Origin: Candidatus Rifleibacteriota bacterium
GTDB lineage: Bacteria; Muiribacteriota; Ozemobacteria; Ozemobacterales; Ozemobacteraceae
Assembly (NCBI GenBank): GCA_051747585.1
Contig: JBNJGH010000067.1
Span: 1 to 18,637, forward strand
DNA: 18,637 nt
Direction: 5' to 3'
Shown one piece after another: positions 1 to 15,500 of the stretch. Every line of letters starts with the position of its first letter. Position 1 is the stretch's first letter. The position numbers and the translations under genes were made by a program. The notes beneath the pieces are model-generated. The model did not search any database. It saw nothing but the letters and a program-made list of their open reading frames with translations, and was not told where the DNA came from.

Positions 1-200
1 TGAAACTCTTCATAATTGCAATTTGCATCAGAAAAATCAGTCATCATCATTAAAGCAAATAAATCCTGCATTATTTTCTGACTGACGTCTTCAACATTTA
101 CATTAGAATCGGCAACGGCTCTGGTAATACCGGCAAGCACACCAGGCTTGTTAGCGCCGAGAACTGTTATAACAACCTTTTCCTTTTGACTCTGGTTCAC
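1..200 (-). CDS. ACT-domain protein, UPF0237-like (partial, runs off the left edge)
   Basis: Not in the ORF track. Manual translation from GTG at 200 (GGAGG RBS upstream) gives MNQSQKEKVVITVLGANKPGVLAGITRAVADSNVNVEDVSQKIMQDLFALMMMTDFS..., which has the ACT motif ITVxGxxKPG and the DVSQxIMQxxF segment typical of UPF0237. Confidence 0.85.
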   Translation of the reverse strand, partial: MNQSQKEKVVITVLGANKPGVLAGITRAVADSNVNVEDVSQKIMQDLFALMMMTDFSDANCNYEEF

Positions 201-306: not shown

Positions 307-909
307 TCAATTTTTCCAGATCGATTGCAATTGTCGGTTAAGACGCACGGGAAAGCCGTTAAAGCTGAAATTATGTAAAACTTCCTTTTCGTCTTTTTCT
401 TCTGTTCTAAAAATTATTTTAAATTCAAACCAGATTCTTCTCAAATCGAATTCCGGGTTTGTCTCGACGATAGCAACCAGCTCATCAATGGTCGTTATTG
501 TTCCATCAGAAAGCTGCAACCTGGGCGTACAACTAAAACTTTTCACCAGTCCCTGGCCGACTTTAACTTTTTTTCCGCCTTTTTCTCTGTGAATTATTTT
601 TTGAGCCGAATCAAACTCGTAGGTAACAAGGGTGTCGCCATGGGGAATAGAAAACCCCACATCTGTTTTCATTACATCTGTAACGATTTGCTTGAAAAAT
701 TCTTCTTCATTTTGCAAGAAAGCATTTTCGAGGTCTTCCTGCAGATATGAGCTTAAAAGACTGCCCTGCCAGGTGCAGGAAACATACTCTTCCTGATGAG
801 AAAAACTACTCAGGGTAGCGCTTAACAACTTAAATATACTATGCAGCAAAATTGAAGAAATTAAACAAACAACCGCAAGTTCTATAAGCGCAAAACCTTT
901 TTTCTTCAT
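307..909 (-). CDS. Type IV prepilin-like protein (PilW/PulJ-like minor pilin), cassette B
   Basis: The likely start is ATG 909, which overlaps the upstream stop as ATGA. MKKKG|FALIELAVVCLISSILL is a class III signal with Gly-1, Phe+1, Glu+5 and a hydrophobic helix. Confidence 0.8.
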   Translation of the reverse strand: MKKKGFALIELAVVCLISSILLHSIFKLLSATLSSFSHQEEYVSCTWQGSLLSSYLQEDLENAFLQNEEEFFKQIVTDVMKTDVGFSIPHGDTLVTYEFDSAQKIIHREKGGKKVKVGQGLVKSFSCTPRLQLSDGTITTIDELVAIVETNPEFDLRRIWFEFKIIFRTEEKDEKEVLHNFSFNGFPVRLNRQLQSIWKN

Positions 910-1328
910 GGCGCCCACTCCAGAACCCGTGAAATAACGAATTGATGAGCAGGCTTCTTTCCCCAACGGATAACCGCTTTAACCATTTTAGCCTTATCGC
1001 CTAAATTTTCAATGGTCAGTTCCCTGGTGAAATTATCGGGGATCTCGGTTAAAGATAACTTTGTGCAAGGCTTTCCCTGTTGCAACAATGCATTATCTGC
1101 ATCGTTTCCGAGTGGGAAACCGCCAACCACCGGAATGTCAGCAAATCGCATAGTACAAATCTGGTTAACAAGCTCAATGGCAAAGTTATTTGCAAGCACT
1201 CTTTCTTTTGTAATTTTCGCTGTTGTACTGCTGCTTGAAAGCAGGGAAAATAACGGCAACAAAGCAATGGCAAAGATGAACGAAGCCACCAGAATTTCAA
1301 CAAAAGAGTATGCTTTTTTATACTTCAT
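906..1328 (-). CDS. Type IV prepilin-like protein (PilV/PulI-like minor pilin), cassette B
   Basis: MKYKKA|YSFVEILVASFIFAIALLPL has Glu+5. The C-terminal FTRELTIE...KMVKAVIRW is typical of PilV-like proteins. Paralog of 10004-10432. Confidence 0.8.
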   Translation of the reverse strand: MKYKKAYSFVEILVASFIFAIALLPLFSLLSSSSTTAKITKERVLANNFAIELVNQICTMRFADIPVVGGFPLGNDADNALLQQGKPCTKLSLTEIPDNFTRELTIENLGDKAKMVKAVIRWGKKPAHQFVISRVLEWAP

Positions 1329-1343
1329 AAAACAGTTGAACAA

Positions 1344-2393
1344 TTACCAGAGAAGATCTTCATCGGCCCCGGCTCCAAGTAAATCTACCAACGGATCCTT
1401 GTCTTTCTCGATTTCATCTTCGAAAGTTTTCACAGCGGGAATTATAAAATTTTCTGCTTTTTGAGGAGTTTTCGAGTCGAATTTAGAGTTTGTCTTGTCA
1501 ACAGGCTTCTTCTTTGCCTGATATTTTGGCCTTTGTGGTTTACTTCCACTGCGAGTTGTTTTTTTGCCTGTTTTACCTCTGGTTTTATCGGCTTTTTTTT
1601 GAAGGCTTTCTATTATATAATTGCTTCTGCTGGCCGACACCTCTGATGATTTTTTTTTATTGGGAACCTTATCGGTCAAAGCATACTGGTCAGCAACTTC
1701 TTTATCAACATGCCTGTAAAGAAAACGATCAAACTCGGCAATAGAAATGTTATCGTCTGCGTTATAGTCCATTAATCTTGCAATTAAGCGCTTGCGCCTA
1801 TCGCTTTGCTTTGAAGGCGACTGATTTATAAGAGCAGAAAGCCTGGTGATTCTTTTACTATAAACCAGAGCCAATAAGTCTGGCATTGCAGCATCAATTT
1901 CACTTTTATCTATCTTATTGTTTTGATCTCGATCAAGAATAGTAAAAATATTTTTTTTGGATTTCAGCCAGGCAAAATTTTGTTCAGCCTCTTGAGGATT
2001 GCTGCTTTGGAATATTTTTTTTACTAACTTCTTTTTTATTTTATTTTCAACTTTTTCTACCGCATCTTTTCTTCTACTTATAACGAAGTCGACAAGCTCC
2101 TGATAAGAAATTGAACCATCAGAGTCGGCATCAAGCTTTTGCAGTCGTTGAACAGCTCGAGGCCTTTTTACCAGGCTGATTTCCTGTGAATCCAATATCT
2201 TGTTACCGTCTCGATCAAGGCTGAAAAAACGATCAAATAAATTTTGTTCGTTAGTATTCTGCCTGTTGCCAGAACGACGAAAGCCTCGTTTATTGCCGCC
2301 GTAATTTTGAAATCCTTGTGCCTGGATTGCAGCTCCTGAAAAGCAATAACAAAAGATAGAAATCAGAATAAACGAACGAAAAATTCTATTCAT
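1344..2393 (-). CDS. Secreted EF-hand calcium-binding protein with a Lys-rich low-complexity C-terminal region
   Basis: Signal peptide (..AAIQA|Q) and four EF-hand loops: DRDGNKILDSQE, DADSDGSISYQE, DRDQNNKIDKSE, DYNADDNISIAE. AAGAGGA RBS upstream. Confidence 0.8.
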   Translation of the reverse strand: MNRIFRSFILISIFCYCFSGAAIQAQGFQNYGGNKRGFRRSGNRQNTNEQNLFDRFFSLDRDGNKILDSQEISLVKRPRAVQRLQKLDADSDGSISYQELVDFVISRRKDAVEKVENKIKKKLVKKIFQSSNPQEAEQNFAWLKSKKNIFTILDRDQNNKIDKSEIDAAMPDLLALVYSKRITRLSALINQSPSKQSDRRKRLIARLMDYNADDNISIAEFDRFLYRHVDKEVADQYALTDKVPNKKKSSEVSASRSNYIIESLQKKADKTRGKTGKKTTRSGSKPQRPKYQAKKKPVDKTNSKFDSKTPQKAENFIIPAVKTFEDEIEKDKDPLVDLLGAGADEDLLW

Positions 2394-2421
2394 ATAAAAA
2401 TCCTCTTAACAAAAATGAAAG

Positions 2422-2500
2422 CCAGGTTTAAACAAATTAACTCAGGGCGTTATCTTTAGCAAGATACCGCCCTGAAGCTAACCTCTGTTTTGAGACCTGG
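2422..2500 (-). terminator. Long stem-loop (terminator or RNA processing/stability element)
   Basis: The core inverted repeat is TCAGGGCG-T-TATCTT/TAGC/AAGATA-C-CGCCCTGA (2442-2475). It extends imperfectly to CCAGGT...ACCTGG and is followed on the minus strand by TTTCATTTTT. Confidence 0.6.
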
Positions 2501-2512
2501 TTTGGAACTGTT

Positions 2513-4375
2513 TTACATACCGCCATCGGTGGTAAAATTTTTACGCCTGAAAACATGGAAATGAAAAGTGCAACCATCCCGGTTCAAGAACTGACCACCA
2601 CTTTCAGGTAAGATTTTTACTCTTACATTACCTCCTACAGGAAGCTTTTTATCGAGATTAATTTTGATTAATGATTTTTTTACCTGAACTTTATTATTCT
2701 GATCAAAATTGATTGTTTCGGGGTTGAGCCTTACTCTTACCAGAGACTGGTTTTGGGCAGTATTAAAGCTAGCAGGATACAAAGTAACTTTTGTTTTCAG
2801 CTTAACCGAGTCAACGTATTTTACTTCATCGCCATCAAAAACCAGGTTCGCTATATTTAAGCGACGTTTAAAAGTTTTACCCGGAGCAGCTCTGATAACC
2901 CAGAGGCTTCTTCTGCCGCAGTTATTAGTTTTGTCTTTGTCACCGGGAGAACTTACCCTGATCTGAAGGCTTGCGTGACCTTTTATTTTTGATTTTGCAG
3001 GTATTTCTACATCGACGAATTCACCGGGATTAATTTTTTCAACCACGACCGGATTACCAAACTCTTTAAAATTTCCCAGAAGAGCGAAACGGCTGAAGTA
3101 AGTCTGAACTTTTACATTTTCGGCTGTTTCGTTACCGAAGTTATAAACTCGGGTTTTGATTATATAATCAACGCCCTGATGAAGACTCTGATCTGTTACT
3201 TCCTTTCCATTTTGAGCCAGGAAGATTTTAATATCGGGATTGGCCCAGGCCGGTATGGTCAGCTCCTGATCAAAATAACGAAAACCAGAATTATCTTTAT
3301 AAGCAGGCTGAGAAATGCCGGGATCGGCATTATTGGATACATTACCTGTACCAATAACCTTGTTGAGATGTTGCCAGATCTCATTTGTAAAGGTAGTCAC
3401 CGCATCTTCCTTATCATTTTCAGCAGAGTCGCCCTGACGAATTACTACCAGATTCTGGCTGGGCACTATAAAAATCTTCTGATCATTTTTACCCAGAGCA
3501 CAAAACATATCTGCAGGCGCAGCAGGTACAAGACTTCCTTCACCTTTTTTTGGCGGATGACCGGCAATAAAAGAATCTTTACCGTTAAGCCACCAGAGAT
3601 ATCCATAAGAAGGATTATCTTGCTGCGAAGTATTAACCATGTCATAAAAGAAATCTTTATCTTCCATAATTTCCCGGCCATTCCAGTTTCCGCCTGCGAG
3701 AACCATTAAACCGAATCTCGCCATATCGCGCGCGTTCATCTCAAAGGTATGTTTTAAAAACTTTGTGTTTTTCATTCCCAGTGGTTTATAAAGAACTTTT
3801 TTGGCAACTTGATCTACTTTATAACCGGTAGCGGCTTCTAAAAGATCATGAAGATTATGATAAGCCTTTGTATTATATCGCCATTTTTCGCCTGGCTCAG
3901 CTTCAAATTTGAGCCTGTTGTCAAGACCACTGTTCATTGAAAGCAAATGCTGGATTTTAATTTTCTTTTCGTTTTCGAGATTTTCTTTTGTCCAGCCGGG
4001 AATAAAATCTGATACAGACTGACTAATTTCAAGTTTACCTTTTTCCTGTGCCAGGCCTACCAGAAATGCTGTAAGACTTTTACCCACAGAGTAAACCCTT
4101 TGTTTATAATCGGCATTTTCTTTAGCCCAGTATTTTTCTACGACAATTTTGCCGTCTTTTAAAATTAAAAATGATTTACTCGAGTGCTCCTTTAAAAAGC
4201 CTTCCATTTCTTTGATCGCATTCATGTTCCAGCCGAGCTCTTGCGGCGAAATAGTATCCCAATTGCTTTCCCCGGGGAAATATAGTTTTTCTGCTGCCCC
4301 TAAAGTTGATGAACTCACTGTAACGACAGTAACCAGAACAATTAGCAAAAATAGCCTGAAAACCTTAGATCTCAT
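2513..4375 (-). CDS. Secreted serine hydrolase (class C beta-lactamase/AmpC-like fold) with C-terminal Ig/CARDB-like domain
   Basis: Signal peptide, SxxK motif (YSVGKS), QHLLSMNSGL, PGEKWRYN, MNARDMARFG, YGYLWW and ALGKNDQKIFIVPSQNLVVIR. The C-terminus has WANPDI...TRVYNFGNETAENVKV...INPGE...TNN, which looks CARDB-like. Confidence 0.85.
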   Translation of the reverse strand: MRSKVFRLFLLIVLVTVVTVSSSTLGAAEKLYFPGESNWDTISPQELGWNMNAIKEMEGFLKEHSSKSFLILKDGKIVVEKYWAKENADYKQRVYSVGKSLTAFLVGLAQEKGKLEISQSVSDFIPGWTKENLENEKKIKIQHLLSMNSGLDNRLKFEAEPGEKWRYNTKAYHNLHDLLEAATGYKVDQVAKKVLYKPLGMKNTKFLKHTFEMNARDMARFGLMVLAGGNWNGREIMEDKDFFYDMVNTSQQDNPSYGYLWWLNGKDSFIAGHPPKKGEGSLVPAAPADMFCALGKNDQKIFIVPSQNLVVIRQGDSAENDKEDAVTTFTNEIWQHLNKVIGTGNVSNNADPGISQPAYKDNSGFRYFDQELTIPAWANPDIKIFLAQNGKEVTDQSLHQGVDYIIKTRVYNFGNETAENVKVQTYFSRFALLGNFKEFGNPVVVEKINPGEFVDVEIPAKSKIKGHASLQIRVSSPGDKDKTNNCGRRSLWVIRAAPGKTFKRRLNIANLVFDGDEVKYVDSVKLKTKVTLYPASFNTAQNQSLVRVRLNPETINFDQNNKVQVKKSLIKINLDKKLPVGGNVRVKILPESGGQFLNRDGCTFHFHVFRRKNFTTDGGM

Positions 4376-4402
4376 TATCGACCTCCCTGAAAATTTATTC
4401 GG

Positions 4403-4933
4403 TTAAAAAGCGCTTTCGAGATTGTTGATAGTCAACTTTTCTACGCTTTGTTGATTATTTTGTTGCTCAATTATTGCAATCAGCTGGTCTGACTCGAGAT
4501 TCACATCATCAAAATCGCCAAGCGAATTAATTTTTTTCATATTGGCTCGATGCGCCTTGATAAAATATGGCAACCGCCTGCGTAAAGATTCTACCCTGGC
4601 CTTTGCAGCATCAGAGCTTGCCATTTTGCTTTCAAGATAGCGCCCGAGTTTAAGTAATTTTTTGAATTGAAGCCTGGCTGATATAAATCTGGCTTTGACA
4701 AGTGCTTTATCAATATGTCTCTTGTTTTCGAGCCTGAATATTACTTCTTTATCATATTCAAGAATTGTTTTAGCAATAGAGATCATTCGTAAATAAACCA
4801 TCTGTGCATAACGGCCTGCAGGCATAAGATCGTCATTATCTGCCGCATGCAAACTACCCGCAAGCAATACTGCAAAAACGAAAATAAAAAAACTTGAAGA
4901 AAAAATAGACATCGTTGTTTTTTTAAAATTCAT
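4403..4933 (-). CDS. Hypothetical secreted, predicted helical protein
   Basis: 176-aa ORF with a hydrophobic N-terminus ending LAGSLHA|A and no recognised family. It lies directly behind an ECF-type promoter. Confidence 0.65.
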   Translation of the reverse strand: MNFKKTTMSIFSSSFFIFVFAVLLAGSLHAADNDDLMPAGRYAQMVYLRMISIAKTILEYDKEVIFRLENKRHIDKALVKARFISARLQFKKLLKLGRYLESKMASSDAAKARVESLRRRLPYFIKAHRANMKKINSLGDFDDVNLESDQLIAIIEQQNNQQSVEKLTINNLESAF

Positions 4934-4964
4934 AAATACTTATCCTGATTTGGAATCTATACTT

Positions 4965-4993
4965 TAGACCGAAGAAAAAATTAATTTGTCACA
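4965..4993 (-). promoter_or_regulatory. ECF-type promoter copy 1 (TGTGAC-N17-GGTCTA)
   Basis: Minus strand TGTGAC 4993-4988, 17-nt spacer, GGTCTA 4970-4965, upstream of ATG 4933. The same bipartite motif and spacing occur at 6545-6573 and 8734-8762. Confidence 0.75.
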
Positions 4994-4999
4994 AGAATT

Positions 5000-5998
5000 T
5001 TAAAAAGCATCATTTAAATTTTTTATTTGCTGATCATAGTTTTCAATTTCTGAACCCGTAGCTTCTGTATCTGATTCTGGCTCTGAAGTTTTCTGATGAG
5101 TATTTGAAGCAGTTTCGGATTTGCGGGGATTTTTTAAATCAGATTTTTTAAAATTACCGACTTTTTTTCTATTCATTTCTTGATTGATTTTTTTTACTGG
5201 TACAAATTCTTTGTAACTTTCACCTTTATTTAGCCGTCTTACAGGTTTGTCAGTTTTATCAAAAATTTCAATGCTTCCATTTACAACTCTAATCTGGTTT
5301 ACCTTATCATCTGCAAAAACTTTTAAAGTAGTTCCATAAACTTTTACATTGTATAAAGGCAACTTAAGACTGATCTGACCTTTTTTCACCTCAAAGTTCA
5401 TTTCAGCCTCACCTGCAATAAATTCAACTGCAGTTTTTGAAACTTCAGCAACAAAGTCGCCTTTACAGGCTATTTTTCTTTGCGGAGCAAATCCGATATT
5501 GCATTCCATCGATTGTTTAAGTTTTATTTGTCGTATTTCTTTTATTTGAATTTTATCCACCAGCTTTTCTGAACCGGTTTTTTCATCAATAAGATAAAAT
5601 TGCCCGGCAATGAGCGGATAAATTTTTTCGGCCACATCTACTTTTTTTATCATGTGCTTTCTTTGAGGCGAACTGTAAAACAGAATTAGCCCAATTATTA
5701 CCAGGCAGGCTACAGCCACTTTTAAACCCAATGGGCCAAATATTTTTTCCAGAATTGATACAGATTTGTTTGAAGTTTTTTCATGTTTCAATCTGGAAAG
5801 AATCTGGTGTTTGAGCCGTTCTGCCTGCTCGGGCATGAGATCTTTTTCTTCTATTGAATCGACAAACAGATTGTAATTAGCAAATGCAGATTCACATTCA
5901 GAGCATTCTTTTAAATGTTGCCTGATTTCCTGAATTTCTTTTTCAGACAACTTTCGGGTGTTTTCGATCAATAAATTTTTTAACTGGTTACAATTCAT
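5000..5998 (-). CDS. Anti-sigma factor: ZAS/zf-HC2 zinc finger, TM helix and FecR-like extracytoplasmic domain
   Basis: The likely start is ATG 5998 (MNCNQLKNLL), an ATGA overlap with the sigma stop. It has HLKECSEC (HxxxCxxC), a TM segment VAVACLVIIGLILFY, and FecR-like VKVYGTTLKV...IRVVNGSIEI. Confidence 0.85.
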   Translation of the reverse strand: MNCNQLKNLLIENTRKLSEKEIQEIRQHLKECSECESAFANYNLFVDSIEEKDLMPEQAERLKHQILSRLKHEKTSNKSVSILEKIFGPLGLKVAVACLVIIGLILFYSSPQRKHMIKKVDVAEKIYPLIAGQFYLIDEKTGSEKLVDKIQIKEIRQIKLKQSMECNIGFAPQRKIACKGDFVAEVSKTAVEFIAGEAEMNFEVKKGQISLKLPLYNVKVYGTTLKVFADDKVNQIRVVNGSIEIFDKTDKPVRRLNKGESYKEFVPVKKINQEMNRKKVGNFKKSDLKNPRKSETASNTHQKTSEPESDTEATGSEIENYDQQIKNLNDAF

Positions 5999-6513
5999 CT
6001 TTGTAACTCCTGACGGAGTGCTTTTAAAACACGCCAGACCATATTTCTTAAAGTTCCGACCGGAACATCGCAAAGTTCTGCTATTTCTTTATATGAAAGA
6101 TCAAAAATAAATCTGTAAATCAGTATTTTTCTTTCGCTCTCTTTAAAAGGTGCAATAATAGTTAGAAAAGATTCACGCACTTCTTTTGGACTTTTGAACT
6201 CGCTGCTTATATCCTCTTTTTTAAGGTTATGGAAGGTATTCTGACTTTTCTTTTGCTGCCTGATTAAATCTATGCCGCAATTATAGGTTATTCTGGCCAG
6301 CCAGCTTTTTATCGAAGAGCTTTTTTTTATGCTTGCAGCAAACCTGAAAACCCTTACAAATACATTTTGATAAATATCTTCTGCATCGGCCTGGTTTCTT
6401 ACCATAGCCCAGGCTTTAGCGTAAACGAACCTACCATAACTATCTATAAGGTCTTCAACAGCTTTAACTTCACCTGTCTGCAGCCTTTTGATCAGATCAT
6501 CATCTTTTGTCAT
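5995..6513 (-). CDS. ECF-family RNA polymerase sigma factor
   Basis: 172 aa. Region 2 has DAEDIYQNVF and IKSWLARITYN, and region 4 has LSYKEIAELCDVPVGTL. Coupled to the anti-sigma gene. Confidence 0.93.
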   Translation of the reverse strand: MTKDDDLIKRLQTGEVKAVEDLIDSYGRFVYAKAWAMVRNQADAEDIYQNVFVRVFRFAASIKKSSSIKSWLARITYNCGIDLIRQQKKSQNTFHNLKKEDISSEFKSPKEVRESFLTIIAPFKESERKILIYRFIFDLSYKEIAELCDVPVGTLRNMVWRVLKALRQELQR

Positions 6514-6544
6514 TCTTAATCAACTTATAAGTTTTTCTATTATA

Positions 6545-6573
6545 TTGACATTCAAATTCAACAATATGTCACA
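6545..6573 (-). promoter_or_regulatory. ECF-type promoter copy 2 (TGTGAC-N17-TGTCAA), probable autoregulatory promoter of the sigma gene
   Basis: Minus strand TGTGAC 6573-6568, 17-nt spacer, TGTCAA 6550-6545, about 30 nt upstream of the sigma ATG. Confidence 0.75.
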
Positions 6574-6576
6574 AAA

Positions 6577-8670
6577 TTAAAAAGATACTGTTATATTATC
6601 AGAATAATCTGCCACAAAACATCGATAATAATAATCGTAATTCTTGCCGGAAGGATCGTTTAACTTGTTATAAAGAATGCGCCCGCCGGCCTTAAACTCA
6701 ATTGGGTTATAGTTGTTAACCGCTAAAGTTCCATTTAAATCAAGTCCGCGATTAGGAGTGTTATTTTTCACAGTGCCATTTAAAGCAATAAGATTTGCAC
6801 AAACAGGCTGACCAGATGAAAGATTTAAAAAAATATTTCCATCCAGGGCAACTATAGTTAACACTTCATCAGGGTCTGACAATCCAATTGCTCCAACCTC
6901 TATGTCGCCGTTTTCAACCAGCAGCAACCCGCCCCTTGTCAGGCTCAAACCATCAGGCAATTTAACTTGTTGCCCCTGAGAATTTTCAATCGATACCGTA
7001 ATTCCCAGGTTCAAACGATTATTTTCCGAGTCATAAAATCTCTCAAGGAACTCTTCAAAATCGTTTATTCTGTATGAAATTTTATCGTCTAAACCTTCTA
7101 CCGGGTAATCCTGGGGATAACCATCTTTGTAAAAATCTAGATCTGCAAATACTTCTGAATCAAACTTCAAAGAAAATTTATGCTGATAATCTGCAACGCT
7201 TTCTCCAAAACAACTGGTCTCGGGAAAAAAGTTATCTTCTGTCCTGAAATACAAATAATCGTGGCTGCGCAAATATGGTTCTGATATTATTGAACACATG
7301 TTCTCCTGATATTCAAAATCAGAAGCAAACATATTACTGTAATTTATCAGCCCGTTATCGAGCTGAATCGGAGTGCCGGGATCAAGACTTCCATTCGAAG
7401 CTGCATCAATAGTAGAGAGAGGCATTGGAAGATTGCCAACAGGCTCATCGGTCTCTCTGACATAATCAACAACTGCATCTCGCTGACCATCAAGATCAAC
7501 ATCTACTACAATTCCGCAAAAGTCTGCATAGCAACGATTTACATTGCCAAGAACAAGGGTAGGCGATGGATTAGATCTAGTTCCAAAAAGATTTAATGAA
7601 GACGAGCGCATTCTGGTTTCAGAAGTTGAATCTGAATCGGGAAAACTGACTGCAAGCCTCTGATCATAGTTCATACCACCGCCATTGTCCTGGGTTGTAT
7701 AAAAACCGGCAACAACATGTTTTAAAATATAAGCAAACTCACTTGCAAAATCAGGGCCACTGTTGAGCGACTGGGGCCATGTCTGGGTATAGTCAGGTGG
7801 AGCAGCAAAGAATGAAGGGGGAAACATAGTGTAATAACCGGGTATACCTGAGCTTTGATCCATTGCGTAAAAGTGAAAAAGCTCGCCGTAAGCCTCGAAG
7901 TTTCCCCCGGTAAGATTGATATCTACGCTATCTCCGCCAATAAATATATAACCACGTTTCTGCCAGCTGTCAGGGTCATTTATTTCAGATGCAGCAAAGT
8001 CAAGTTCGCCACCATTCTTTAAAATTACCGGAAGACAGTTAGTGCTTTGAGCAAAAGCACTGTCTGAATAACCGTCTATATGATTCGCAAAGCAATTCAA
8101 AACCTTAGAATCATCTAAATTTTTGACATAAAAAGTAAATTTTCCCAGAATATCGGGTAACAGATTAATCAGTCTTATTTGCCTGTCTTCGCTAAGTTTG
8201 CAATAAAATCCATTTGATGTGACTTCTGATGTAATTGTTACGACAAGCTCTTTTTCGAATGGATCAAAACCGGTTGTAGCTAAATTTTCTTCTTCGCGAA
8301 GTTGATGTATGTTTTTTACAATAATAGAACAATCAGCTGTAGCCTTTGAATAGTTTTGTAATATGTCTGGAAGCAAAGGAAAAGAAATTGGTATTTCATT
8401 ACCAGGCTCAATAGATTCAGAACGGAAAAACGAAGTTAGATCAGAATCTTCTGACTCCAGCTCTTCATTAAGCCTTGCTACAGAATAGTTTAAAACAGAT
8501 TGAGCCAGAACCATGGCAGTGGATCTTTTCTGAAGATGTCTGGATTGAGAAAGCTTCTTTCTTGTATAAGAATCTATACTGAAAGCGAAAATGCTTACAA
8601 TAACAAGCACTCCCAAAAGCGTATAAAGGACTATGCCGCGTTTATCCTCAATAATTTTGAGCTTAATCAA
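6577..8670 (-). CDS. Large PilX/GspK-like prepilin protein (697 aa), cassette B
   Basis: TTG start. EDKRG|IVLYTLLGVLVIVSIF is a class III-like signal lacking Glu+5, as in PilX/GspK. The C-terminus has beta-solenoid-like segments (GGLLLVENGDIEV, IVALDGNIFL). Paralog of 10429-12480. Confidence 0.7.
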   Translation of the reverse strand: MIKLKIIEDKRGIVLYTLLGVLVIVSIFAFSIDSYTRKKLSQSRHLQKRSTAMVLAQSVLNYSVARLNEELESEDSDLTSFFRSESIEPGNEIPISFPLLPDILQNYSKATADCSIIVKNIHQLREEENLATTGFDPFEKELVVTITSEVTSNGFYCKLSEDRQIRLINLLPDILGKFTFYVKNLDDSKVLNCFANHIDGYSDSAFAQSTNCLPVILKNGGELDFAASEINDPDSWQKRGYIFIGGDSVDINLTGGNFEAYGELFHFYAMDQSSGIPGYYTMFPPSFFAAPPDYTQTWPQSLNSGPDFASEFAYILKHVVAGFYTTQDNGGGMNYDQRLAVSFPDSDSTSETRMRSSSLNLFGTRSNPSPTLVLGNVNRCYADFCGIVVDVDLDGQRDAVVDYVRETDEPVGNLPMPLSTIDAASNGSLDPGTPIQLDNGLINYSNMFASDFEYQENMCSIISEPYLRSHDYLYFRTEDNFFPETSCFGESVADYQHKFSLKFDSEVFADLDFYKDGYPQDYPVEGLDDKISYRINDFEEFLERFYDSENNRLNLGITVSIENSQGQQVKLPDGLSLTRGGLLLVENGDIEVGAIGLSDPDEVLTIVALDGNIFLNLSSGQPVCANLIALNGTVKNNTPNRGLDLNGTLAVNNYNPIEFKAGGRILYNKLNDPSGKNYDYYYRCFVADYSDNITVSF

Positions 8671-8733
8671 TTAAAAATTCCTGTTTAACTTCTTTGTTCT
8701 TTAAATTATCATATTTTTTGTTTGACCAGAAAT

Positions 8734-8762
8734 TAGACCAGGAATTTTAGAAATTTGTCACA
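8734..8762 (-). promoter_or_regulatory. ECF-type promoter copy 3 (TGTGAC-N17-GGTCTA)
   Basis: Minus strand TGTGAC 8762-8757, 17-nt spacer, GGTCTA 8739-8734, upstream of the 697-aa PilX-like gene. Confidence 0.75.
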
Positions 8763-8769
8763 AAATTTT

Positions 8770-9468
8770 TTACTCATCAAAAGTTAAGAGCTGGGGCAAA
8801 AGATTGTTCTGCTCAAGAAAGTCGTATGCGCAACCTATATTGGCAGCTTCTTCAATATTGCGATGAGTGTCGGTTCCGATGCTGAGTTGAACGCCTGCAA
8901 GCAAAGCCGGATCGAGTTCGTTCCAGAACCATTTATTGCGTTCTCCAGATGGAATCTCGAGAGTAATTTTTAACTGTTTCAAAATAGAAAAAAAATCATT
9001 CAAAGGTGTGTGCTTCTGTATTGCTTTTAAATCTGAGTGGGCAAGAATCAGAGGTTTTTCACAGCGGCTCTTATAAGTTTCAAGCTCAGTTAGAGGGGCG
9101 CCTTGAAAACGCGATTCCCCAATGTATTCAAGCAAAACATAATCGAGATCTGTATTGATCTTATGCCATGGAATTTTATCAATGTCTCCTGTCGTTCTAC
9201 GCAGACAGCTGTCTATTTCAACTCCTGCAACCACTTTTATTTGTTCAGAGTAATATTGTTTAAGCTGCTTAAGACAGTGAACATATTTATCCCATAATTT
9301 ATCGAGCCATTGATCATAATTGAATTCGTAATAAACTTTTGAAGTATAAAAATGATCGGATATGCCGATTATTTCAAGATCAGCAGAAATCGCAGTGGTA
9401 ATTATTTCTTCGGGCAAAAAAGCACCATCAGAAAAAAGAGTGTGGTTATGCAGATTCTGTCTGGTCAT
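8770..9468 (-). CDS. PHP-domain metal-dependent phosphoesterase (histidinol-phosphatase/YcdX-like)
   Basis: Motifs NLHNHTLFSDG, IGISDH, AGVE, ILAH and GTDTH. AAGGAG RBS upstream. Confidence 0.88.
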   Translation of the reverse strand: MTRQNLHNHTLFSDGAFLPEEIITTAISADLEIIGISDHFYTSKVYYEFNYDQWLDKLWDKYVHCLKQLKQYYSEQIKVVAGVEIDSCLRRTTGDIDKIPWHKINTDLDYVLLEYIGESRFQGAPLTELETYKSRCEKPLILAHSDLKAIQKHTPLNDFFSILKQLKITLEIPSGERNKWFWNELDPALLAGVQLSIGTDTHRNIEEAANIGCAYDFLEQNNLLPQLLTFDE

Positions 9469-9477
9469 AGACTCCTT

Positions 9478-10017
9478 TTAAATACTATTTTCAAGATTTC
9501 TACAAACTATTAATCTTTTGCTTTTAAATTCTTCATTATTGTCTTCGTCAGATGAAACTGTTATTTCTACCCACATACCGCTTTTACTGCGATTATTAGC
9601 GGGCAGATTAAATTGTAGCTGTCGAAACAGAGCAGATAAATTAAGCCCGCGCCCAAATACATGTTTACTTTGACCGGTTAGACTGTTATCTTCCTGGCGC
9701 TCAAGACCATCTGCCAGCCGGTAAATAATAGTGCTGGTGCTGCCATCCTGGTTGGTAATTTGCCATCGTGCATCTGATTCGGAGTTTTCGATCGCCGGAT
9801 CATTTAAACTGGTGGCTCTCATAAGATCATATTCGATTTGCGACATTATTAAAGCGGCTGTCTGCATATTGGTAAGGTGAGCCATTCCCTTATTCGAGCC
9901 TTTAAGTCCGCCTGCAAACATATTCATAACTACTGCCATAACAATGCTTAAAAGAAGCGCGGCAATACATGCCTCAACAAGAGTGATTCCGCGTTTATAA
10001 ATTCTAGCTTCCTGCAT
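9478..10017 (-). CDS. Type IV prepilin-like protein (PilW/PulJ-like), cassette A
   Basis: YKRG|ITLVEACIAALLLSIVM has Gly-1 and Glu+5. It also contains QIEYDLMRA, like the PilW-type helix. Confidence 0.8.
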   Translation of the reverse strand: MQEARIYKRGITLVEACIAALLLSIVMAVVMNMFAGGLKGSNKGMAHLTNMQTAALIMSQIEYDLMRATSLNDPAIENSESDARWQITNQDGSTSTIIYRLADGLERQEDNSLTGQSKHVFGRGLNLSALFRQLQFNLPANNRSKSGMWVEITVSSDEDNNEEFKSKRLIVCRNLENSI

Positions 10018-10432
10018 TACTTATAACCCCTGTCATTATCAATTCTTCATCTTCGGTTTTTCCTTCGTTCCAGGTAACAGCCACCTTTATCAATTTATAG
10101 GAATATTTCCAATCAACAGGTTTTACCTCTTCTATTGAAACACTTCTGGTAAAAATCTCTTCCATGTCGAGCACAAGCTCTTCTGAGCCTGAATTGAAAG
10201 AAACAGTCGGCACTGATTTCTGGCTCACCGGCTCAAGAAAGGCGTCATTGTAAGCAAGCGAATAAGCATAATCTAAAATATTTGCCGCATGCTGACGAGC
10301 CAGCAAATCATTGCGGTTTTGAATGGTTCCGCTGCTGCTGAACGAAAACATCGTTGTCAGTGGAATCATAACCATTGCCAGGCAAACCACTGCAACTAAA
10401 ATCTCGACAAAAGAAAATGCTTTAATTCTCAT
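10004..10432 (-). CDS. Type IV prepilin-like protein (PilV/PulI-like), cassette A
   Basis: MRIKA|FSFVEILVAVVCLAMVMIPL, with C-terminal FTRSVSIE...KLIKVAVTW. ATGA overlap with the upstream PilX-like gene. Confidence 0.8.
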   Translation of the reverse strand: MRIKAFSFVEILVAVVCLAMVMIPLTTMFSFSSSGTIQNRNDLLARQHAANILDYAYSLAYNDAFLEPVSQKSVPTVSFNSGSEELVLDMEEIFTRSVSIEEVKPVDWKYSYKLIKVAVTWNEGKTEDEELIMTGVISNAGS

Positions 10433-12480
10433 TCTACCAGCTCCGGTTCATCTTTTAATGAAATCATCAGCAAGGGCTTTTCTGACATTGCATCGGAAGA
10501 ACGATCGGGCAGAGCAGCAAGATTTTTAAAATATTTAATTTCTGCTCCACGGGCAGCACTGCTGTTCAAACTGCCATTAGCCAAACGCTGCATTGCTACA
10601 TTTCCATTAATTGTTGGCAGATTGGAATTAGCAGAGCCTGCAAACTTAACCTGCCCCTTACCTGAACCCTGGCCGGCTGCAACCAGAGACACATTCATAT
10701 CTCCGCCGACGCCGCTCGATATTTCTATATTTCCATCGAGAGTAACCAGATGCAGAATAAACTCACCGGTATCAGACCTGATATAATTGCTGATCTGAAT
10801 ATTGCCCTTTTCTAATATAATACCGCCATGACTCTGCAATTGAAGGCCATTTTCAATATCAATGCCTGAATCTGATTTGACATGGAGCCAGCCATTTAAA
10901 TCGAGCTTATTACCATCTAATAAGCCTTCGCTTTTTAATCTATTCAAAAGCTTTTCACCATCACTAAGCTCAATGGTTTTGATCGAGCGGGCGCCGGGAA
11001 TCTGAATTTTATCGAGAATTTCATTCATCTCGTTCAAGCTCGAAACATCAGAAAAAATATTTGAATAAGGATCGGGAATGGCTTCGGCAGTCCCGCTGTC
11101 AACGGCATCACCTTTAATAAAATCATAAAGAGGATCTGAGGCGGAAATAATGCCTGAGTCCATTGGGTCTGGATTCTGATAGTTGGTAATAATATAGCTT
11201 AAAGCTCTATTATAAGGAACCTCAGTCAAACTACTTGCATAATCACTGTTATAGGAATCGAGACCTGGGTTTCCTGCAACATCGCTGAAATGTCCGATAT
11301 CGAAGTCTTCACTGCCTCCCGCGCTAATATCGTCGAGCCTGGCCTGGCTGCCACAAAAAGGCAAAGGCCCGTAAAAATCTGTGCCTTCTTTAAAAGCTTT
11401 GGCACATAGGGTCAGAGAATAAACATCGCCAAAAACAAGAGTAGGCGATTTTATTAGATCGGTACCCATCAGTCTAAAGATTGAGCTTTTTTTAACCTGG
11501 TCTGCAAAACCATCTCTAATAAGCTCATACCAGAATTTGGAAGCCGAATCACTGGTATCATCACATAAACCGGTTTCCCAGTTCAATAATGCCATATCTC
11601 CGATGTAGCCTGTTGTGTAAAGCCCATCGCCTCGGCCTTCGGCCAGTAAGTGAAAGCCTTCGCCGTATTCTCCCGGTATATTCCAGCCCCGGCAGTTACC
11701 CAGAACTATTTTTCCACCGCCCATATAGACCAATCCCAATGGCGAATTGATAATTTCGGAAAATCTGGCGGGAAAGCTTGAACTACCTGAATTGCCGTTA
11801 TCAAGAACCCAGGGTCGATAATCTGAACTTTTGAGTTTTCCGTACATGTCGTTAGTTACCAGGTTAAACCTTTCGGCTTCGTCTCCGCACAAAGCATCAT
11901 TTACGTAAAGAGTAAACCTGGACAGAACGGGTATGAGATTGGCAACAACTTTTACCTGAAGGGCATAAACATAATTTTCTTCGATCATATCTTTCGAGCC
12001 TGGCGCCTGATAGCTTATATCAACGGGAATCAAAATTTTGCCCGTTTTTTCTCTGGGGTAAGCCTCTATTAGCGGAGAAAAGTTCTCTTTTCTAATCACC
12101 CAGGAAACATCCGCACTGAGATTATTTAAACTTGCATTGCCTTCAAAAAGCTTGTTTTTGACTGCTGCCAGTTTGCCGACAAATTCTATATTGCCGCTGA
12201 GCTCCTCTTCAAGTTCCTCTACAGGGCGCTCTAACTGTTTAAAAAGATCGCCATCATTCTTTTTCAGCTCTATTTCTTTTAAATAATGAGCTGCGAGGGT
12301 AGCCAGAGAATAAGACAACTCACGGGCAAAAAAGCTTTTGTTTAGCCTGCCCGTGGAGTGTCTTCTACTGGTGGTATATTTTAGAAAACCGCCAAAGAAA
12401 AGAAACAGAGCCATTATTACAGCTCCGACTATGAACAGTGCGCTTCCCTTTCTTTTTCGCGGGGAGTTAGAAACTTTCAT
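10429..12480 (-). CDS. Large PilX/GspK-like prepilin protein (683 aa), cassette A
   Basis: RKRKG|SALFIVGAVIMALFLFF has no Glu+5. It shares several blocks with the 697-aa protein (FTLYV, SPTLVFGDV, GEGFH, LDGNI). Confidence 0.72.
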   Translation of the reverse strand: MKVSNSPRKRKGSALFIVGAVIMALFLFFGGFLKYTTSRRHSTGRLNKSFFARELSYSLATLAAHYLKEIELKKNDGDLFKQLERPVEELEEELSGNIEFVGKLAAVKNKLFEGNASLNNLSADVSWVIRKENFSPLIEAYPREKTGKILIPVDISYQAPGSKDMIEENYVYALQVKVVANLIPVLSRFTLYVNDALCGDEAERFNLVTNDMYGKLKSSDYRPWVLDNGNSGSSSFPARFSEIINSPLGLVYMGGGKIVLGNCRGWNIPGEYGEGFHLLAEGRGDGLYTTGYIGDMALLNWETGLCDDTSDSASKFWYELIRDGFADQVKKSSIFRLMGTDLIKSPTLVFGDVYSLTLCAKAFKEGTDFYGPLPFCGSQARLDDISAGGSEDFDIGHFSDVAGNPGLDSYNSDYASSLTEVPYNRALSYIITNYQNPDPMDSGIISASDPLYDFIKGDAVDSGTAEAIPDPYSNIFSDVSSLNEMNEILDKIQIPGARSIKTIELSDGEKLLNRLKSEGLLDGNKLDLNGWLHVKSDSGIDIENGLQLQSHGGIILEKGNIQISNYIRSDTGEFILHLVTLDGNIEISSGVGGDMNVSLVAAGQGSGKGQVKFAGSANSNLPTINGNVAMQRLANGSLNSSAARGAEIKYFKNLAALPDRSSDAMSEKPLLMISLKDEPELVE

Positions 12481-12485
12481 TTAAT

Positions 12486-12839
12486 TTATCTTGTATCGGG
12501 ATCTACTACTGATAAAGTGGGCATGAACCTTTTAGTTGCGTTTTTTTCTGCTTCAGGATCATCTACTTCATCATAATCAGTAACTTTAACATAAGCCGAA
12601 TGAACGTAAACACCGGTTCTGCCATCGACATTTACTTCATACCAGTTGCCTGAAAAACCGGTAATAGTTACAACCGTACCTTGTGGCACGGTTTGCAACA
12701 CATCATAGCTCATGCCAGGCCCTTCTCTTACGTTTAAGGCACTAGCCGTGGTTTCGCCTTTTGAAGGCATTTTCACCGCATATAAAAAAGATGAGCCCAC
12801 CAGTAAAAGTAATATTAGCAATAAAAAAATCTTTTTCAC
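12486..12839 (-). CDS. Secreted SH3b (bacterial SH3) domain protein
   Basis: The likely start is GTG 12839 with an AGGAG RBS (MKKIFLLLILLLLVGSSFLYA). SH3b motif ALNVREGPG...GNWYEV...YVHSAYV. Confidence 0.85.
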   Translation of the reverse strand: MKKIFLLLILLLLVGSSFLYAVKMPSKGETTASALNVREGPGMSYDVLQTVPQGTVVTITGFSGNWYEVNVDGRTGVYVHSAYVKVTDYDEVDDPEAEKNATKRFMPTLSVVDPDTR

Positions 12840-12862
12840 TGAGGTTCTCCTGGTTTTAAAGT

Positions 12863-13816
12863 TCAAGGCATTTTGAATGAACGAATTTTAAACTGGCCAT
12901 CAGGCGCTTCGGCATAATTTGCATCGCCCAGCCAGACATTATTTTGAAATTTATCGATAAAGCGGTTCATAACATAAGGAGGTTTTAAGTCTTTTTTGCC
13001 TTTTATTTCACCGTCGAAGCCAACTCTTGCAATTGTAAATTTCTTAACATGCTTGCCAGTATCTGAATAAGTCATTATAAATTCCTGTGCGGTTTCATCG
13101 ACCCACCAGAGTTCAGAATTGAAATGTTTGCCAAGATTCAGTTGAACTTCTTTGGTAATAGCCCCGTTTCTGTCGGCAGATACCAGAAAAGAACTCTGGC
13201 TTTCTTCTGTATAGAAAACTCTATATAAAGTGTCTAAATCAGGACAAAGAGCCATTCCTGACCACTGCCACGGCAATTGGAGCCCAAGCTTATGGCTTTC
13301 CGGTTCAAAAGCAAAAATTTTACGTTTCATTTTATCTGCCACATAGATTCGACCACTTGCGCTTATTTCAACTCTGTATGGCTGTGACAGGTTATCAGAA
13401 TCGATAGAAGCAATCTTTTCGCCTTTTTTATTAAACTTCATCAGGCTGTTGGTCATAGAATCTATTACCCAGAATGCCTTAACTTTTTTATCTTCAGTTT
13501 CGAGAGCGATATCTTCGATAATCATGGAAGCCGGTTTCTCGGTAAGTTTTACAGACTCAACCAGCTCATTCTTTTTATTTAAAACAAGTATTTTGCCACC
13601 CATGCTGTCGGCAATATAAAACTTTTCGGCAAAAACCTTAAAAGAGAGTGGACCAAGCGGATAAGGTTCTTCGAAAAATTCGGTATTCCTTTGATTTAGA
13701 AAAGCTACCTGGCCACTTTCTGTTCCGTAATTGAGTGATACCTGAGCAAAAGCAGCGGCTGAAAACAACATATTAACCATAACAAATAAAATAACTGATT
13801 TTCTTATGTTTACCAT
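12863..13816 (-). CDS. Secreted NHL/6-bladed beta-propeller-like protein
   Basis: Signal peptide (..AAAFA|Q) and repeated blades FYIADSMGGKILV, FWVIDSMTNSLMKF and PYRVEISASGRIYVADKMKRKIFAF. Confidence 0.72.
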   Translation of the reverse strand: MVNIRKSVILFVMVNMLFSAAAFAQVSLNYGTESGQVAFLNQRNTEFFEEPYPLGPLSFKVFAEKFYIADSMGGKILVLNKKNELVESVKLTEKPASMIIEDIALETEDKKVKAFWVIDSMTNSLMKFNKKGEKIASIDSDNLSQPYRVEISASGRIYVADKMKRKIFAFEPESHKLGLQLPWQWSGMALCPDLDTLYRVFYTEESQSSFLVSADRNGAITKEVQLNLGKHFNSELWWVDETAQEFIMTYSDTGKHVKKFTIARVGFDGEIKGKKDLKPPYVMNRFIDKFQNNVWLGDANYAEAPDGQFKIRSFKMP

Positions 13817-13830
13817 TATTTAATTTTTCC

Positions 13831-14694
13831 TCACACTTTTCTAAGAACTCGGCAAACCGGTGCATAGGTTGCAGGATGAACTCTGGGCATTCTTCGCGAA
13901 GAAGAGTTACTCATTGCCTGAACATTGTTACCGCTGTTCATTATGATGCCTATATGGGTATCGTTATCGTTGCGACCGTTGCCAGACCTGTCATAAGTGC
14001 GCCAGGTGATAACATCGCCCGACTGGTATGGAGGAACACTTACTTCCTGCCAACCAAGGCCTCTGAGTCTGTCGATAGCATTTAAAACTCCAAGCTGAAT
14101 ACCGGTATTTACACCTGCTGCTTCGAGAGCTGTGGTAACAACCTGAGCACAACCAAGCCGGCCGCCTTTTGTCAAGCTGTCATAAGGGAAAGCCTGGTAG
14201 GAATCATAGCGATTGACGAGATCTTGTGCCGCAGATACAACTTTTTGCTGAACGCTTCCTTTTGCCGGAACATTGACAAACGGAGCACCGCCTGTGTTTG
14301 ACGGACTTGACTCGGTGCCCGCGCCTTTCTGCTGGGAGACATACCAGGAGTGAACATAGGCTACGCCGCCATTATGTTCTATTTTATACCAGTTACCTTC
14401 ACGACCAATAATTCGTACTTTATCGTTATTGTATAAACTGCCGATTATTGTACCCCAAGGGCCGGTTCTAACATTTAACGAAGTGTTGACTCGCACGTAG
14501 CCATAGTCGGGCAAATCTTCATCTGAAGCAGAAGTGCCACTCAGATCAGCTCTTGCCTGAGATGTATCTTCGGTCTCAACAACTTCATCCGATGTATCAT
14601 GCTGGCTAAGAGTTTCATTAAAATTCATAGCAGCAAGATTACCGGCACACATAAAACCTGCAATTAAAAGCACCAGAATTATCGACTTTCTCAT
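13831..14694 (-). CDS. Secreted SH3b plus NlpC/P60-superfamily (papain-like Cys-His) peptidoglycan amidase/peptidase
   Basis: The likely start is ATG 14694 with an AAGGAGA RBS. Signal peptide, SH3b (SLNVRTGP...GNWYKI...YVHSWYV) and a catalytic domain GCAQVVTTAL...GDVITW...THIGII...MSNSS. Confidence 0.8.
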   Translation of the reverse strand: MRKSIILVLLIAGFMCAGNLAAMNFNETLSQHDTSDEVVETEDTSQARADLSGTSASDEDLPDYGYVRVNTSLNVRTGPWGTIIGSLYNNDKVRIIGREGNWYKIEHNGGVAYVHSWYVSQQKGAGTESSPSNTGGAPFVNVPAKGSVQQKVVSAAQDLVNRYDSYQAFPYDSLTKGGRLGCAQVVTTALEAAGVNTGIQLGVLNAIDRLRGLGWQEVSVPPYQSGDVITWRTYDRSGNGRNDNDTHIGIIMNSGNNVQAMSNSSSRRMPRVHPATYAPVCRVLRKV

Positions 14695-14812
14695 CAATTG
14701 TCTCCTTTTTGAGTGTTCCTGCTTAATTATACGCCATAGATGACAAAAAAGTTTTAAAATTTTATAGTTTATTTTGTACAATTAGATAGACCAAATAAAA
14801 AGGGAGAACAAA

Positions 14813-15013: not shown

Positions 15014-15156
15014 ATGTTGGGTGGATGATTGTAAGAAGAGGCGCAGAAAAAGATTCTCTGAAAACTCTGTGGTTAATTCCTTTGAGGCTTGGTGTGAGGC
15101 GAATTCTTTTCTGAAACCAACTGATGGTCGCTGACCGAAAATTGCTACAGGGGACC

Positions 15157-15203: not shown

Positions 15204-15500
15204 ATGAGTTCTTCGTCTTCACATGTTCGGCACGGCGTTTACTTACCGGTCGAGTTGCTTAATCAGTTGCGAATTGTTGCTGCCAGCGAAAAGAAATCGA
15301 TAAACAAGCAAATCGAAACTATTATTCGTGAGTGGCTGGCAAAAGAGAAAAAAAGCATAAAGCTTTCCAGAGATGATCTGTTACAGTTGCCTCCTGAAGT
15401 TAGAGAAAGCATTCTGCACCTGCAAGCAAAAAAAATGAAAGACTATTATAAAAACAACGACGAATTCGCTGGTTCTGAGGCTGACTTGTATGAATACTGA
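15204..15500 (+). CDS. Antitoxin, ribbon-helix-helix (Arc/CopG-like) with acidic C-terminal tail
   Basis: HGVYLPVELLNQLRIVAASEKKSINKQIETIIREWL fits an RHH pattern. It overlaps the toxin start. Confidence 0.75.
   Translation: MSSSSSHVRHGVYLPVELLNQLRIVAASEKKSINKQIETIIREWLAKEKKSIKLSRDDLLQLPPEVRESILHLQAKKMKDYYKNNDEFAGSEADLYEY

What the first reader, a model, noticed from the sequence alone, without database searches (positions are those of the whole stretch)
307..8762. Candidate system: an ECF-sigma-switched alternative pilus-tip cassette with embedded regulator and secreted cargo
Seen in sequence: cassette A runs PilX-like, PilV-like, PilW-like contiguously (12480-9478). Cassette B has the same order, but about 5.2 kb (ECF sigma, ZAS-TM-FecR anti-sigma, secreted hypothetical, serine hydrolase-Ig, EF-hand protein) sits between its PilX-like gene and its PilV/PilW genes. 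ECF-type promoters precede the PilX-B gene, the sigma gene and the cargo genes. Established: PilV/W/X-type minor pilins form pilus or pseudopilus tip priming complexes, and TM anti-sigmas relay extracytoplasmic signals. Inference: an envelope signal releases the sigma, which turns on a second tip complex plus co-regulated secreted enzymes, switching pilus/T2SS tip specificity. I know of no described system with this layout.
Basis: partly seen in the sequence, partly recalled or inferred. Interest (0 to 1): 0.8.

Follow-up and report, generated by a model that had tools for sequence, protein, structure and literature searches.

The report
Pilus-tip module with tail-coded cargo
In an uncultured group of bacteria, a set of pilus-tip genes travels with a regulator whose likely target genes encode unrelated, predicted exported proteins sharing short tail codes, and the regulator's membrane inhibitor ends in a copy of one code, so the cell likely checks whether its pilus tips are loaded; the proposed switch between two neighbouring tip sets is not supported.

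Summary
Genes and three ECF-type promoter motifs are real; the A/B switch is not supported. The genome (Ca. Riflebacteria by homolog names) has 25 long PilX/ComZ-like genes. Cassette A is a conserved neighbour; B is an accessory insertion (empty site in a congener). X-V-W are contiguous in 6 of 7 related loci; none has the sigma inside.

What is conserved is a module (tip trio, ECF, zinc/FecR anti-sigma, 176-aa helical protein, cargo slot, EF-hand protein) with C-terminal codes. The anti-sigma's last 8 residues match its neighbour's best of 3,270 genes; such matches recur in two other cassette types (25 pairs, p=5e-5). Sixteen proteins of at least five unrelated families end in Gly-Gly-Met: 7 of 8 module-bearing genomes, 0 of 11 others; all 5 dispersed ones carry the sigma's promoter motif.

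Best model (0.5): tails dock at the tip, and the anti-sigma's mimic reports vacancy, inducing cargo. Binding is untested. The scan earlier noted a mimic-tailed anti-sigma in an MSHA system on other DNA and this pilin repertoire; a word search of its notes found no GGM tag.

The parts
8734..8761 (-). ECF-type promoter motif before X-B (lineage-specific)
   Evidence: score 18.5, rank 1 of 2,961 upstream regions
6577..8670 (-). X-B: 697-aa ComZ/GspK-type apical pilin (no Glu+5; pilin sheet, about 330-aa insert, beta-solenoid, own C-terminal strand)
   Evidence: orthologues 34-52% identical
6545..6572 (-). ECF-type promoter motif before the sigma gene (conserved, likely autoregulatory)
   Evidence: motif before the ECF gene in 8 of 8 loci
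5995..6513 (-). ECF sigma factor, 172 aa
5000..5998 (-). Anti-sigma: zinc motif (C3, H28, C32, C35), one hydrophobic segment, FecR-like domain with invariant G222-T223, low-complexity linker, mimic tail
5003..5026 (-). Anti-sigma tail code (D-[DE]-x-F type), last 8 residues
4965..4992 (-). ECF-type promoter motif before the 176-aa gene
   Evidence: score 13.8
4403..4933 (-). 176-aa signal-peptide-bearing helical-bundle protein (proposed adaptor) ending in the same code as the anti-sigma (4406-4429)
2513..4375 (-). Variable cargo slot: 620-aa signal-peptide-bearing beta-lactamase-family serine hydrolase (SxxK at 96-99) with CARDB-like C-terminal part, ending Gly-Gly-Met (2516-2524)
2400..2515 (-). 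Long single-copy hairpin between hydrolase and EF-hand gene (possible attenuator or mRNA stabiliser)
   Evidence: (z -4.5, 0 of 200 shuffles)
1344..2393 (-). 349-aa signal-peptide-bearing EF-hand protein, conserved module member, ending ...LW
   Evidence: 6 of 6 orthologues end LW
906..1343 (-). V-B: PilV/GspI-type minor pilin (Glu+5)
   Evidence: V genes at X-B orthologues hit this gene best
307..909 (-). W-B: PilW/GspJ-type minor pilin (Glu+5)
   Evidence: W genes at X-B orthologues hit this gene best
9478..12480 (-). Cassette A (X-V-W), part of a separate conserved SH3-protein operon; NOT part of the module

Best explanation
This is an accessory module in which a pilus-tip trio, an ECF sigma factor with its membrane anti-sigma, and predicted exported proteins are linked by short C-terminal codes that the tip likely reads, so that the anti-sigma's copy of one code would report empty tips and switch on more cargo. 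Shown: the module's composition, its patchy spread, the three tail codes, the anti-sigma/neighbour tail match, and the promoter motif on cargo genes near and far. Inferred steps: (1) X-V-W prime a filament on one of the genome's shared machines (8 secretins); (2) the 176-aa protein docks on the tip by its D-[DE]-x-F tail and acts as adaptor for Gly-Gly-Met cargo (or X binds both codes); (3) cargo hydrolases are carried out or displayed; (4) when docking sites are vacant, the anti-sigma's tail, on its long linker, is caught and pulled, the self-cleaved FecR domain is opened to proteolysis, and the sigma transcribes adaptor and cargo, a negative-feedback loop. The tip is the likely sensor, not the output.
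For: Anti-sigma tail's best match among 3,270 gene proxies is the next gene; the neighbour is also rank 1 of 3,103 for the C31 and C36 anti-sigmas. 25 pairs: cognate score 18.8 vs 2.9, p=5e-5; residues -30..-23 p=0.70; within B type p=0.006. The paired proteins are not homologous outside the tail and 43 of 82 identical residues use different codons. Codes differ by cassette type, and only X/V/W and ECF/anti-sigma are common to the three types. GGM: 16 genes, at least 5 unrelated families; 7 of 8 vs 0 of 11 genomes, Fisher p=1.6e-4; 5 of 5 dispersed genes have the promoter motif vs 59 of 2,961 background; untagged homologues exist outside the module. X is directly followed or preceded by a GGM gene in 3 loci. 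Precedent for tip docking by about 10 terminal residues: PMC13533445.
Against: The X-B model supplies its own terminal strand (682-696), so the known PilY1 groove looks occupied and another site is needed; the insert is low-confidence (pLDDT <50). GGM tails are glycine-rich, not strand-like. G022 has an X-B orthologue but no 176-aa gene and no GGM gene in 14 hits; G015 (64% complete) has regulator and cargo but no X-B found. No B-type anti-sigma was found in G057 or G048. Three of six cassette-linked anti-sigmas in G000 (C2, C26, C58) show no tail match. Genomes are kin; the signal-peptide rule is a crude one of my own (1,120 of 3,270 pass). No expression data.
Confidence: 0.5

Rival explanations
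1. The tails are read inside the periplasm by something other than the tip (a tail-specific protease, the EF-hand protein, the 176-aa protein or the anti-sigma's FecR domain); the pilin genes are linked but are not the reader.
For: Hydrophobic C-termini (F, M, W) suit tail-specific proteases (recalled); one S41 protease is in the genome; Prc acts on FecR-type regulators (PMC9249621, passage). GGM tracks the 176-aa gene (7 of 7) slightly better than X-B.
Against: A single shared protease does not explain cassette-specific codes that co-vary within loci; the C31 code ends in polar residues; GGM genes are absent from 11 genomes without the module.
Confidence: 0.2
2. Same docking, opposite direction: the tip binds an outside polymer and retraction hauls it in; tagged hydrolases stay in the periplasm at the filament base, and the anti-sigma senses engagement (a pilus counterpart of FecA/FecR/FecI signalling).
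For: ComZ, the closest structure, is a tip DNA receptor (PMC6561018, abstract); FecR domain with Gly-Thr site retained; no TonB-dependent receptor at any locus, 2 in the genome.
Against: Does not explain why a soluble regulon product carries the same tail as the anti-sigma, nor why non-catalytic Ig-like proteins carry GGM.
Confidence: 0.18
3. One reading: an envelope signal frees the sigma, which turns on tip B and switches the pilus from tip A to tip B.
For: In this genome the strongest promoter motif precedes X-B, and V/W-B are last in the run of genes.
Against: 25 long X genes; A-B adjacency is an insertion; embedded layout in 0 of 7 related loci; motif before X in 1 of 10 relatives.
Confidence: 0.07
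4. GGM is a ligation signal: loss of Met leaves a Gly-Gly end that is joined covalently to a surface component.
For: Invariant Gly-Gly before the last residue in 16 of 16; Gly-Gly ends mark ubiquitin-like conjugation (recalled).
Against: No ligase or peptidase gene is conserved in the module; does not explain the other two codes.
Confidence: 0.05

Closest known systems
ComZ of Thermus thermophilus (PDB 6qvi) and T2SS GspK/XcpX (3ci0, 5vtm)
   Same: Pilin fold with terminal strand in cis; beta-solenoid insertion as in ComZ; no Glu+5.
   Different: Extra insert of about 330 aa; 25 paralogues; linked to a regulator and tagged proteins; weak structural scores (Z 10.2, rmsd 13.8; Z 8.6, rmsd 3.5).
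PilC/PilY1 and MshQ tip adhesins (PMC13533445)
   Same: A non-pilin, signal-peptide protein ends in a short conserved peptide and is encoded beside I-J-K pilin genes.
   Different: No beta-propeller; K subunit seems to fill its own groove; tails sit on many unrelated proteins and on an anti-sigma.
FecIRA-type cell-surface signalling (PMC9249621)
   Same: ECF sigma + one-pass anti-sigma with FecR domain and Gly-Thr self-cleavage site.
   Different: Zinc-type N-terminus; the receptor-binding C-terminal subdomain is replaced by a linker and an 8-residue tail; no TonB-dependent receptor at the locus.
VreAIR (PUMA3) with Hxc T2SS, P. aeruginosa (PMC2729926)
   Same: ECF/anti-sigma controlling adjacent secretion genes and secreted proteins, with a small periplasmic partner.
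   Different: Hxc is a whole T2SS; here only tip pilins, mostly without the promoter motif; no tail mimicry in the passages read.
Multiple core minor-pilin sets in cyanobacteria (PMC13759059)
   Same: Alternative beta-solenoid PilX tip sets on a shared machine.
   Different: Two sets there, about 25 here; no anti-sigma or cargo code in the abstract.
FlgM (recalled, not looked up)
   Same: An anti-sigma that reports the state of an export machine by behaving as its substrate.
   Different: FlgM is cytoplasmic and exported by a type III system; this one is membrane-anchored with a C-terminal mimic.

Membership tests
GspK/PilX/ComZ apical minor pilins | Prepilin-type N-terminus lacking Glu+5 | tested here: met
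   ...KRG|IVLYT, G12 invariant in 9 orthologues
GspK/PilX/ComZ apical minor pilins | Pilin helix + sheet closed by the protein's own C-terminal strand, with a beta-solenoid insertion | tested here: met
   Model pTM 0.54; H10-72, strands 111-169, solenoid 533-667, strand 682-696; aligned to residue 697 with ComZ, PilA, GspK. Foldseek gave no match at E<=0.001
GspK/PilX/ComZ apical minor pilins | Forms a tip trimer with I/J pilins | not testable with these tools
   The one complex job scored only the tail partner
PilV/GspI and PilW/GspJ | Methylation motif with Glu+5; order next to the K gene | tested here: met
PilV/GspI and PilW/GspJ | Reach a curated family cut-off | tested here: not met
   V-B: TIGR02523 20.5 vs 52.2, gspI 18.6 vs 44.35; W-B no PilW/GspJ model
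FecR-type cell-surface signalling | ECF sigma beside a one-pass anti-sigma with FecR domain and Gly-Thr site | tested here: met
   FecR E 0.0016, below cut-off; G222-T223 invariant in 6 of 6
FecR-type cell-surface signalling | Folded C-terminal receptor-binding subdomain and an adjacent TonB-dependent transducer | tested here: not met
   Low-complexity linker + tail instead; no such receptor seen in the loci; 2 elsewhere in the genome
PilC/PilY1 adhesins (for the 176-aa protein and cargo) | C-terminal beta-propeller | tested here: not met
   176-aa protein is a helical bundle; cargo families unrelated
PilC/PilY1 adhesins (for the 176-aa protein and cargo) | Last about 10 residues dock on the K pilin | tested here: inconclusive
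   Conserved tails; see Tried and rejected for the complex job
VreAIR-Hxc type locus | Whole T2SS (secretin, ATPase, platform) encoded beside and induced by the ECF | tested here: not met
   Only three pilins in the module; 8 secretins elsewhere
Verru_Chthon four-gene pilin cassettes (NCBIfam models, recalled) | Match to those models | tested here: not met
   No such hit at E<=0.05 for the six pilin proteins

The most novel reading that the evidence does not exclude
Riflebacteria use an address-code export system: each of several type IV filament tip sets reads its own short linear C-terminal code, any enzyme that gains the code (here Gly-Gly-Met) and the sigma's promoter joins that channel, and a membrane anti-sigma wearing a decoy of the code measures tip occupancy. 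This would be a linear, portable targeting signal for a type II/type IV filament machine and a new route of envelope signalling without an outer-membrane receptor.
Probability: 0.35. Interest if true: 0.9.

Novelty: new variant of a known kind. Interest (0 to 1): 0.74.

Why it matters
How type II/type IV filament machines choose cargo is open; a review passage states that linear signals have been excluded for T2SS (PMC9251779). Here unrelated enzymes share a three-residue end that tracks one tip module and one promoter, which makes a linear code directly testable with peptides and reporter fusions. The anti-sigma/companion tail match, repeated in three cassette types with co-varying codes, suggests a feedback sensor of tip loading and would explain why these bacteria keep two dozen tip sets.

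Tried and rejected
Complex prediction of X-B/V-B/W-B with the 176-aa protein's last 32 residues: no answer (0.12, mark 0.32), neither for nor against. Fold search of the 176-aa model: no match at E<=0.001; ESM Atlas for it and for the X-B insert: nothing at 0.9. Foldseek on X-B: no significant match. Sequencing runs: four low-share runs, only 150-320-bp pieces; the RNA run's pieces lie in the B region but the run was chosen with that region, so no use for expression or assembly check. Raw GGM-stop DNA counts are chance-dominated; only the in-frame test is informative. Promoter pattern searches in relatives were at control level; intergenic hits were ECF genes, GGM genes and a few others. High promoter score at the untagged G000 esterase lies in repeat-like sequence and was rejected. 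Sigma-70/terminator scan at chance level. DNA duplication as source of tail likeness rejected. Metagenome scan gave 2 loci only; genome-contig scan could not run on the 176-aa alignment. Close relatives (87-92% X) could not be fetched, so the split layout is untested at species level. Paper searches for Riflebacteria with pilin/pili/secretion, ECF with minor pilin (73), anti-sigma mimic (111), T2SS C-terminal signal (63), Verru_Chthon (85) listed nothing on this system; subscription papers are not covered.
Full report
1. Observation. The window is contig C67 of G000 (4.14 Mb, 93.55% complete). Homologues of two module proteins are named Candidatus Riflebacteria by their sources. The motif TGACA-N16-GTC[TA]A precedes X-B, the sigma and the 176-aa gene; its strict form occurs twice in the genome, both here. 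It does not precede the hydrolase or EF-hand gene, which would be read from the 4992 site; a strong single-copy hairpin lies between them. The X-B model (pTM 0.54, insert unresolved) matches ComZ (Z 10.2, rmsd 13.8, 278 aligned), S. sanguinis PilA (9.7, 3.5, 115) and GspK (8.6, 3.5, 106), with its own last strand closing the pilin sheet.

2. No A/B switch. G000 has 25 X-like genes of 400 aa or more, 107 prepilin-type ORFs by my profiles, 8 secretins and 10 ECF sigmas, 6 of them at such cassettes; the C2 cassette also has its sigma and anti-sigma between X and V. Cassette A belongs to an SH3-protein operon found in 4 of 5 congeners; in G003 the order is A, PHP, ACT gene with no B, in G005 other genes fill the site, and in G057 A and B lie on different contigs. 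None of 5 congeners has an X-B or 176-aa orthologue. B is an accessory insertion.

3. The conserved module. The 176-aa gene was found in 8 of 87 phylum genomes, all in the window's family. At X-B orthologues the V and W genes hit V-B and W-B best, so the split trio is cognate. X and V abut in 6 of 7 related loci; in G057 the 176-aa and EF-hand genes lie between them; the sigma never does. ECF and anti-sigma are adjacent to the trio in 5 of these 7. The run ECF, anti-sigma, 176-aa, cargo, EF-hand recurs in G024, G013:C22, G006:C152 and G015 with different cargo. Left out of these counts: G007 (pieces at contig ends), G022 (V gene not called), G048:C746, G006:C124 and L051 (fragments), G013:C53 (distant). 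The promoter motif precedes the ECF gene in 8 of 8 loci but X in only 1 of 10 relatives, weakly; in G006:C174 X follows a cargo gene that has it.

4. Tail code 1: the anti-sigma copies its companion. The anti-sigma has invariant zinc ligands, a FecR-like domain with invariant Gly222-Thr223 (the self-cleavage site of FecR/FoxR, PMC9249621 passages), then a linker and a D-[DE]-x-F end; the 176-aa protein ends alike. Among 3,270 gene proxies the best match to its last 8 residues is the next gene. Over 25 pairs from three cassette types cognate tails score 18.8 against 2.9 (p=5e-5); an internal stretch does not (p=0.70). Within types: B p=0.006 (8 pairs), C31 0.058 (6), C36 0.054 (11), C36 loci with a soluble FecR-like protein 0.014 (6) (data; loci whose anti-sigma end was not in the fetched DNA were left out). 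Partners are not homologous outside the tail, and 43 of 82 identical residues in 21 pairs use different codons, so the match is kept at protein level. Kin are not independent; the p values overstate.

5. Tail code 2: Gly-Gly-Met on cargo. The hydrolase is the only one of 3,270 proxies ending GGM. In-frame checks of GGM-stop matches found 15 such genes in 7 of 8 genomes with the 176-aa gene (G000 1, G006 3, G013 4, G057 3, G048 2, G015 1, G024 1, G007 0; 20 of 21 matches examined in G006, all in the others) and one on a metagenome contig behind X. Thirteen of the 16 show a signal-peptide-like start by my crude rule; three lack a visible start. They fall in at least five unrelated groups: beta-lactamase-family hydrolases, S9-like esterases, a PIG-L deacetylase, Ig-like proteins and a 189-aa singleton. 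In 11 genomes without the gene, 100 matches gave none (TAG stops not examined in 5 of them; chance genes: a membrane protein in G058, and an open frame in G010 whose start was not seen). Fisher p=1.6e-4, or 1.2e-3 if G010 counts. Homologous esterases outside the module lack the tag; one Ig-like cargo in G013:C22 lacks it and one ends GGID. All 5 dispersed tagged genes carry the promoter motif (scores 20.3, 13.6, 10.4, 14.8, 12.5) under a matrix trained only on ECF-upstream sites; background 59 of 2,961 and 2 of 108 at 10.4. Tag and regulon go together. A third code...LW, ends the EF-hand protein in the window and 6 of 6 orthologues.

6. Mechanism. Only X/V/W and ECF/anti-sigma are common to the three cassette types while the codes differ, which points to the tip as reader (inference). 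PilC/PilY1 dock on the K pilin by their last 6-12 residues (PMC13533445, parts 1-3 of 8 read); that paper places ComZ-type pilins among those supplying the strand themselves, as X-B seems to, so a second site, perhaps the insert, is needed. I propose that the 176-aa protein docks by code 1 and brings GGM cargo, and that the anti-sigma's decoy is caught by vacant tips, freeing the sigma to make more adaptor and cargo (0.5). This fits a regulon that holds the secreted genes but mostly not the pilins. Against it: G022 has X-B without adaptor or cargo, G015 the reverse (64% complete), and no B-type anti-sigma was found in G057 or G048. Rivals: a periplasmic reader (0.2), import with periplasmic enzymes (0.18), the A/B switch (0.07), covalent Gly-Gly ligation (0.05).

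7. Known and new. It works like FecR signalling with a pilus tip in place of the receptor, but fails membership of that family on the receptor and its binding domain; it resembles VreAIR-Hxc (PMC2729926, passages) without a whole T2SS. Also seen: PMC13759059 and PMC6561018 (abstracts), PMC9251779 and the ECF reclassification preprint 10.1101/2019.12.11.873521 (passages; no mention of pili), search listings otherwise; no supplements read. Searches listed nothing on this system. Earlier unchecked notes of this scan describe the pilin repertoire of this genome and a mimic-tailed anti-sigma beside an MshQ-type adhesin in another genome (seen after my own tests); a word search for the GGM tag found none.

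8. Verdict. Observation confirmed; interpretation partly supported; new variant of known kinds; interest 0.74. The codes and their link to the regulon are shown from sequence; what reads them is untested.

Noticed in passing
window 15204-15852 (+): Ribbon-helix-helix gene and PemK/MazF-type gene: ordinary type II toxin-antitoxin pair.
   Followed up: no
window 15911-18637 (+): One open frame fusing an ATP-grasp domain to an S15 (X-Pro dipeptidyl-peptidase) hydrolase, cut by the contig end.
   Followed up: no
window about 15050-15150: Copy of a dispersed repeat with many matches in the genome.
   Followed up: no
window 9478-14781 (-): Cassette A is co-conserved with two SH3 proteins and a propeller-like protein across genera; may be a cell-wall-targeting tip set.
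   Followed up: partly
window 1-200 (-) and 8770-9468 (-): ACT-like and PHP genes flank the insertion; the site holds other genes in G005 and is empty in G003.
   Followed up: yes
L248:1276-1881, L250:8116-8775, L251:1227-1829, L252:6031-6651, L209, L203, L206, L207: FecR-like lipoproteins of about 200-290 aa all end in IN[PQ]R, several beside pilin genes: a further possible tail code.
   Followed up: no
L222-L227: In some C36-type loci a soluble FecR-like protein of about 520 aa carries the same co-varying tail as the companion.
   Followed up: partly
L053:7345-8881 (G006:C124): X-B-type gene truncated at about 283 aa, directly followed by a start-less GGM esterase, no assembly gap: decayed copy.
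   Followed up: partly
G000:C2:18312-23327: Second cassette with ECF and anti-sigma between X and V, followed by a LysM protein; no tail match.
   Followed up: partly
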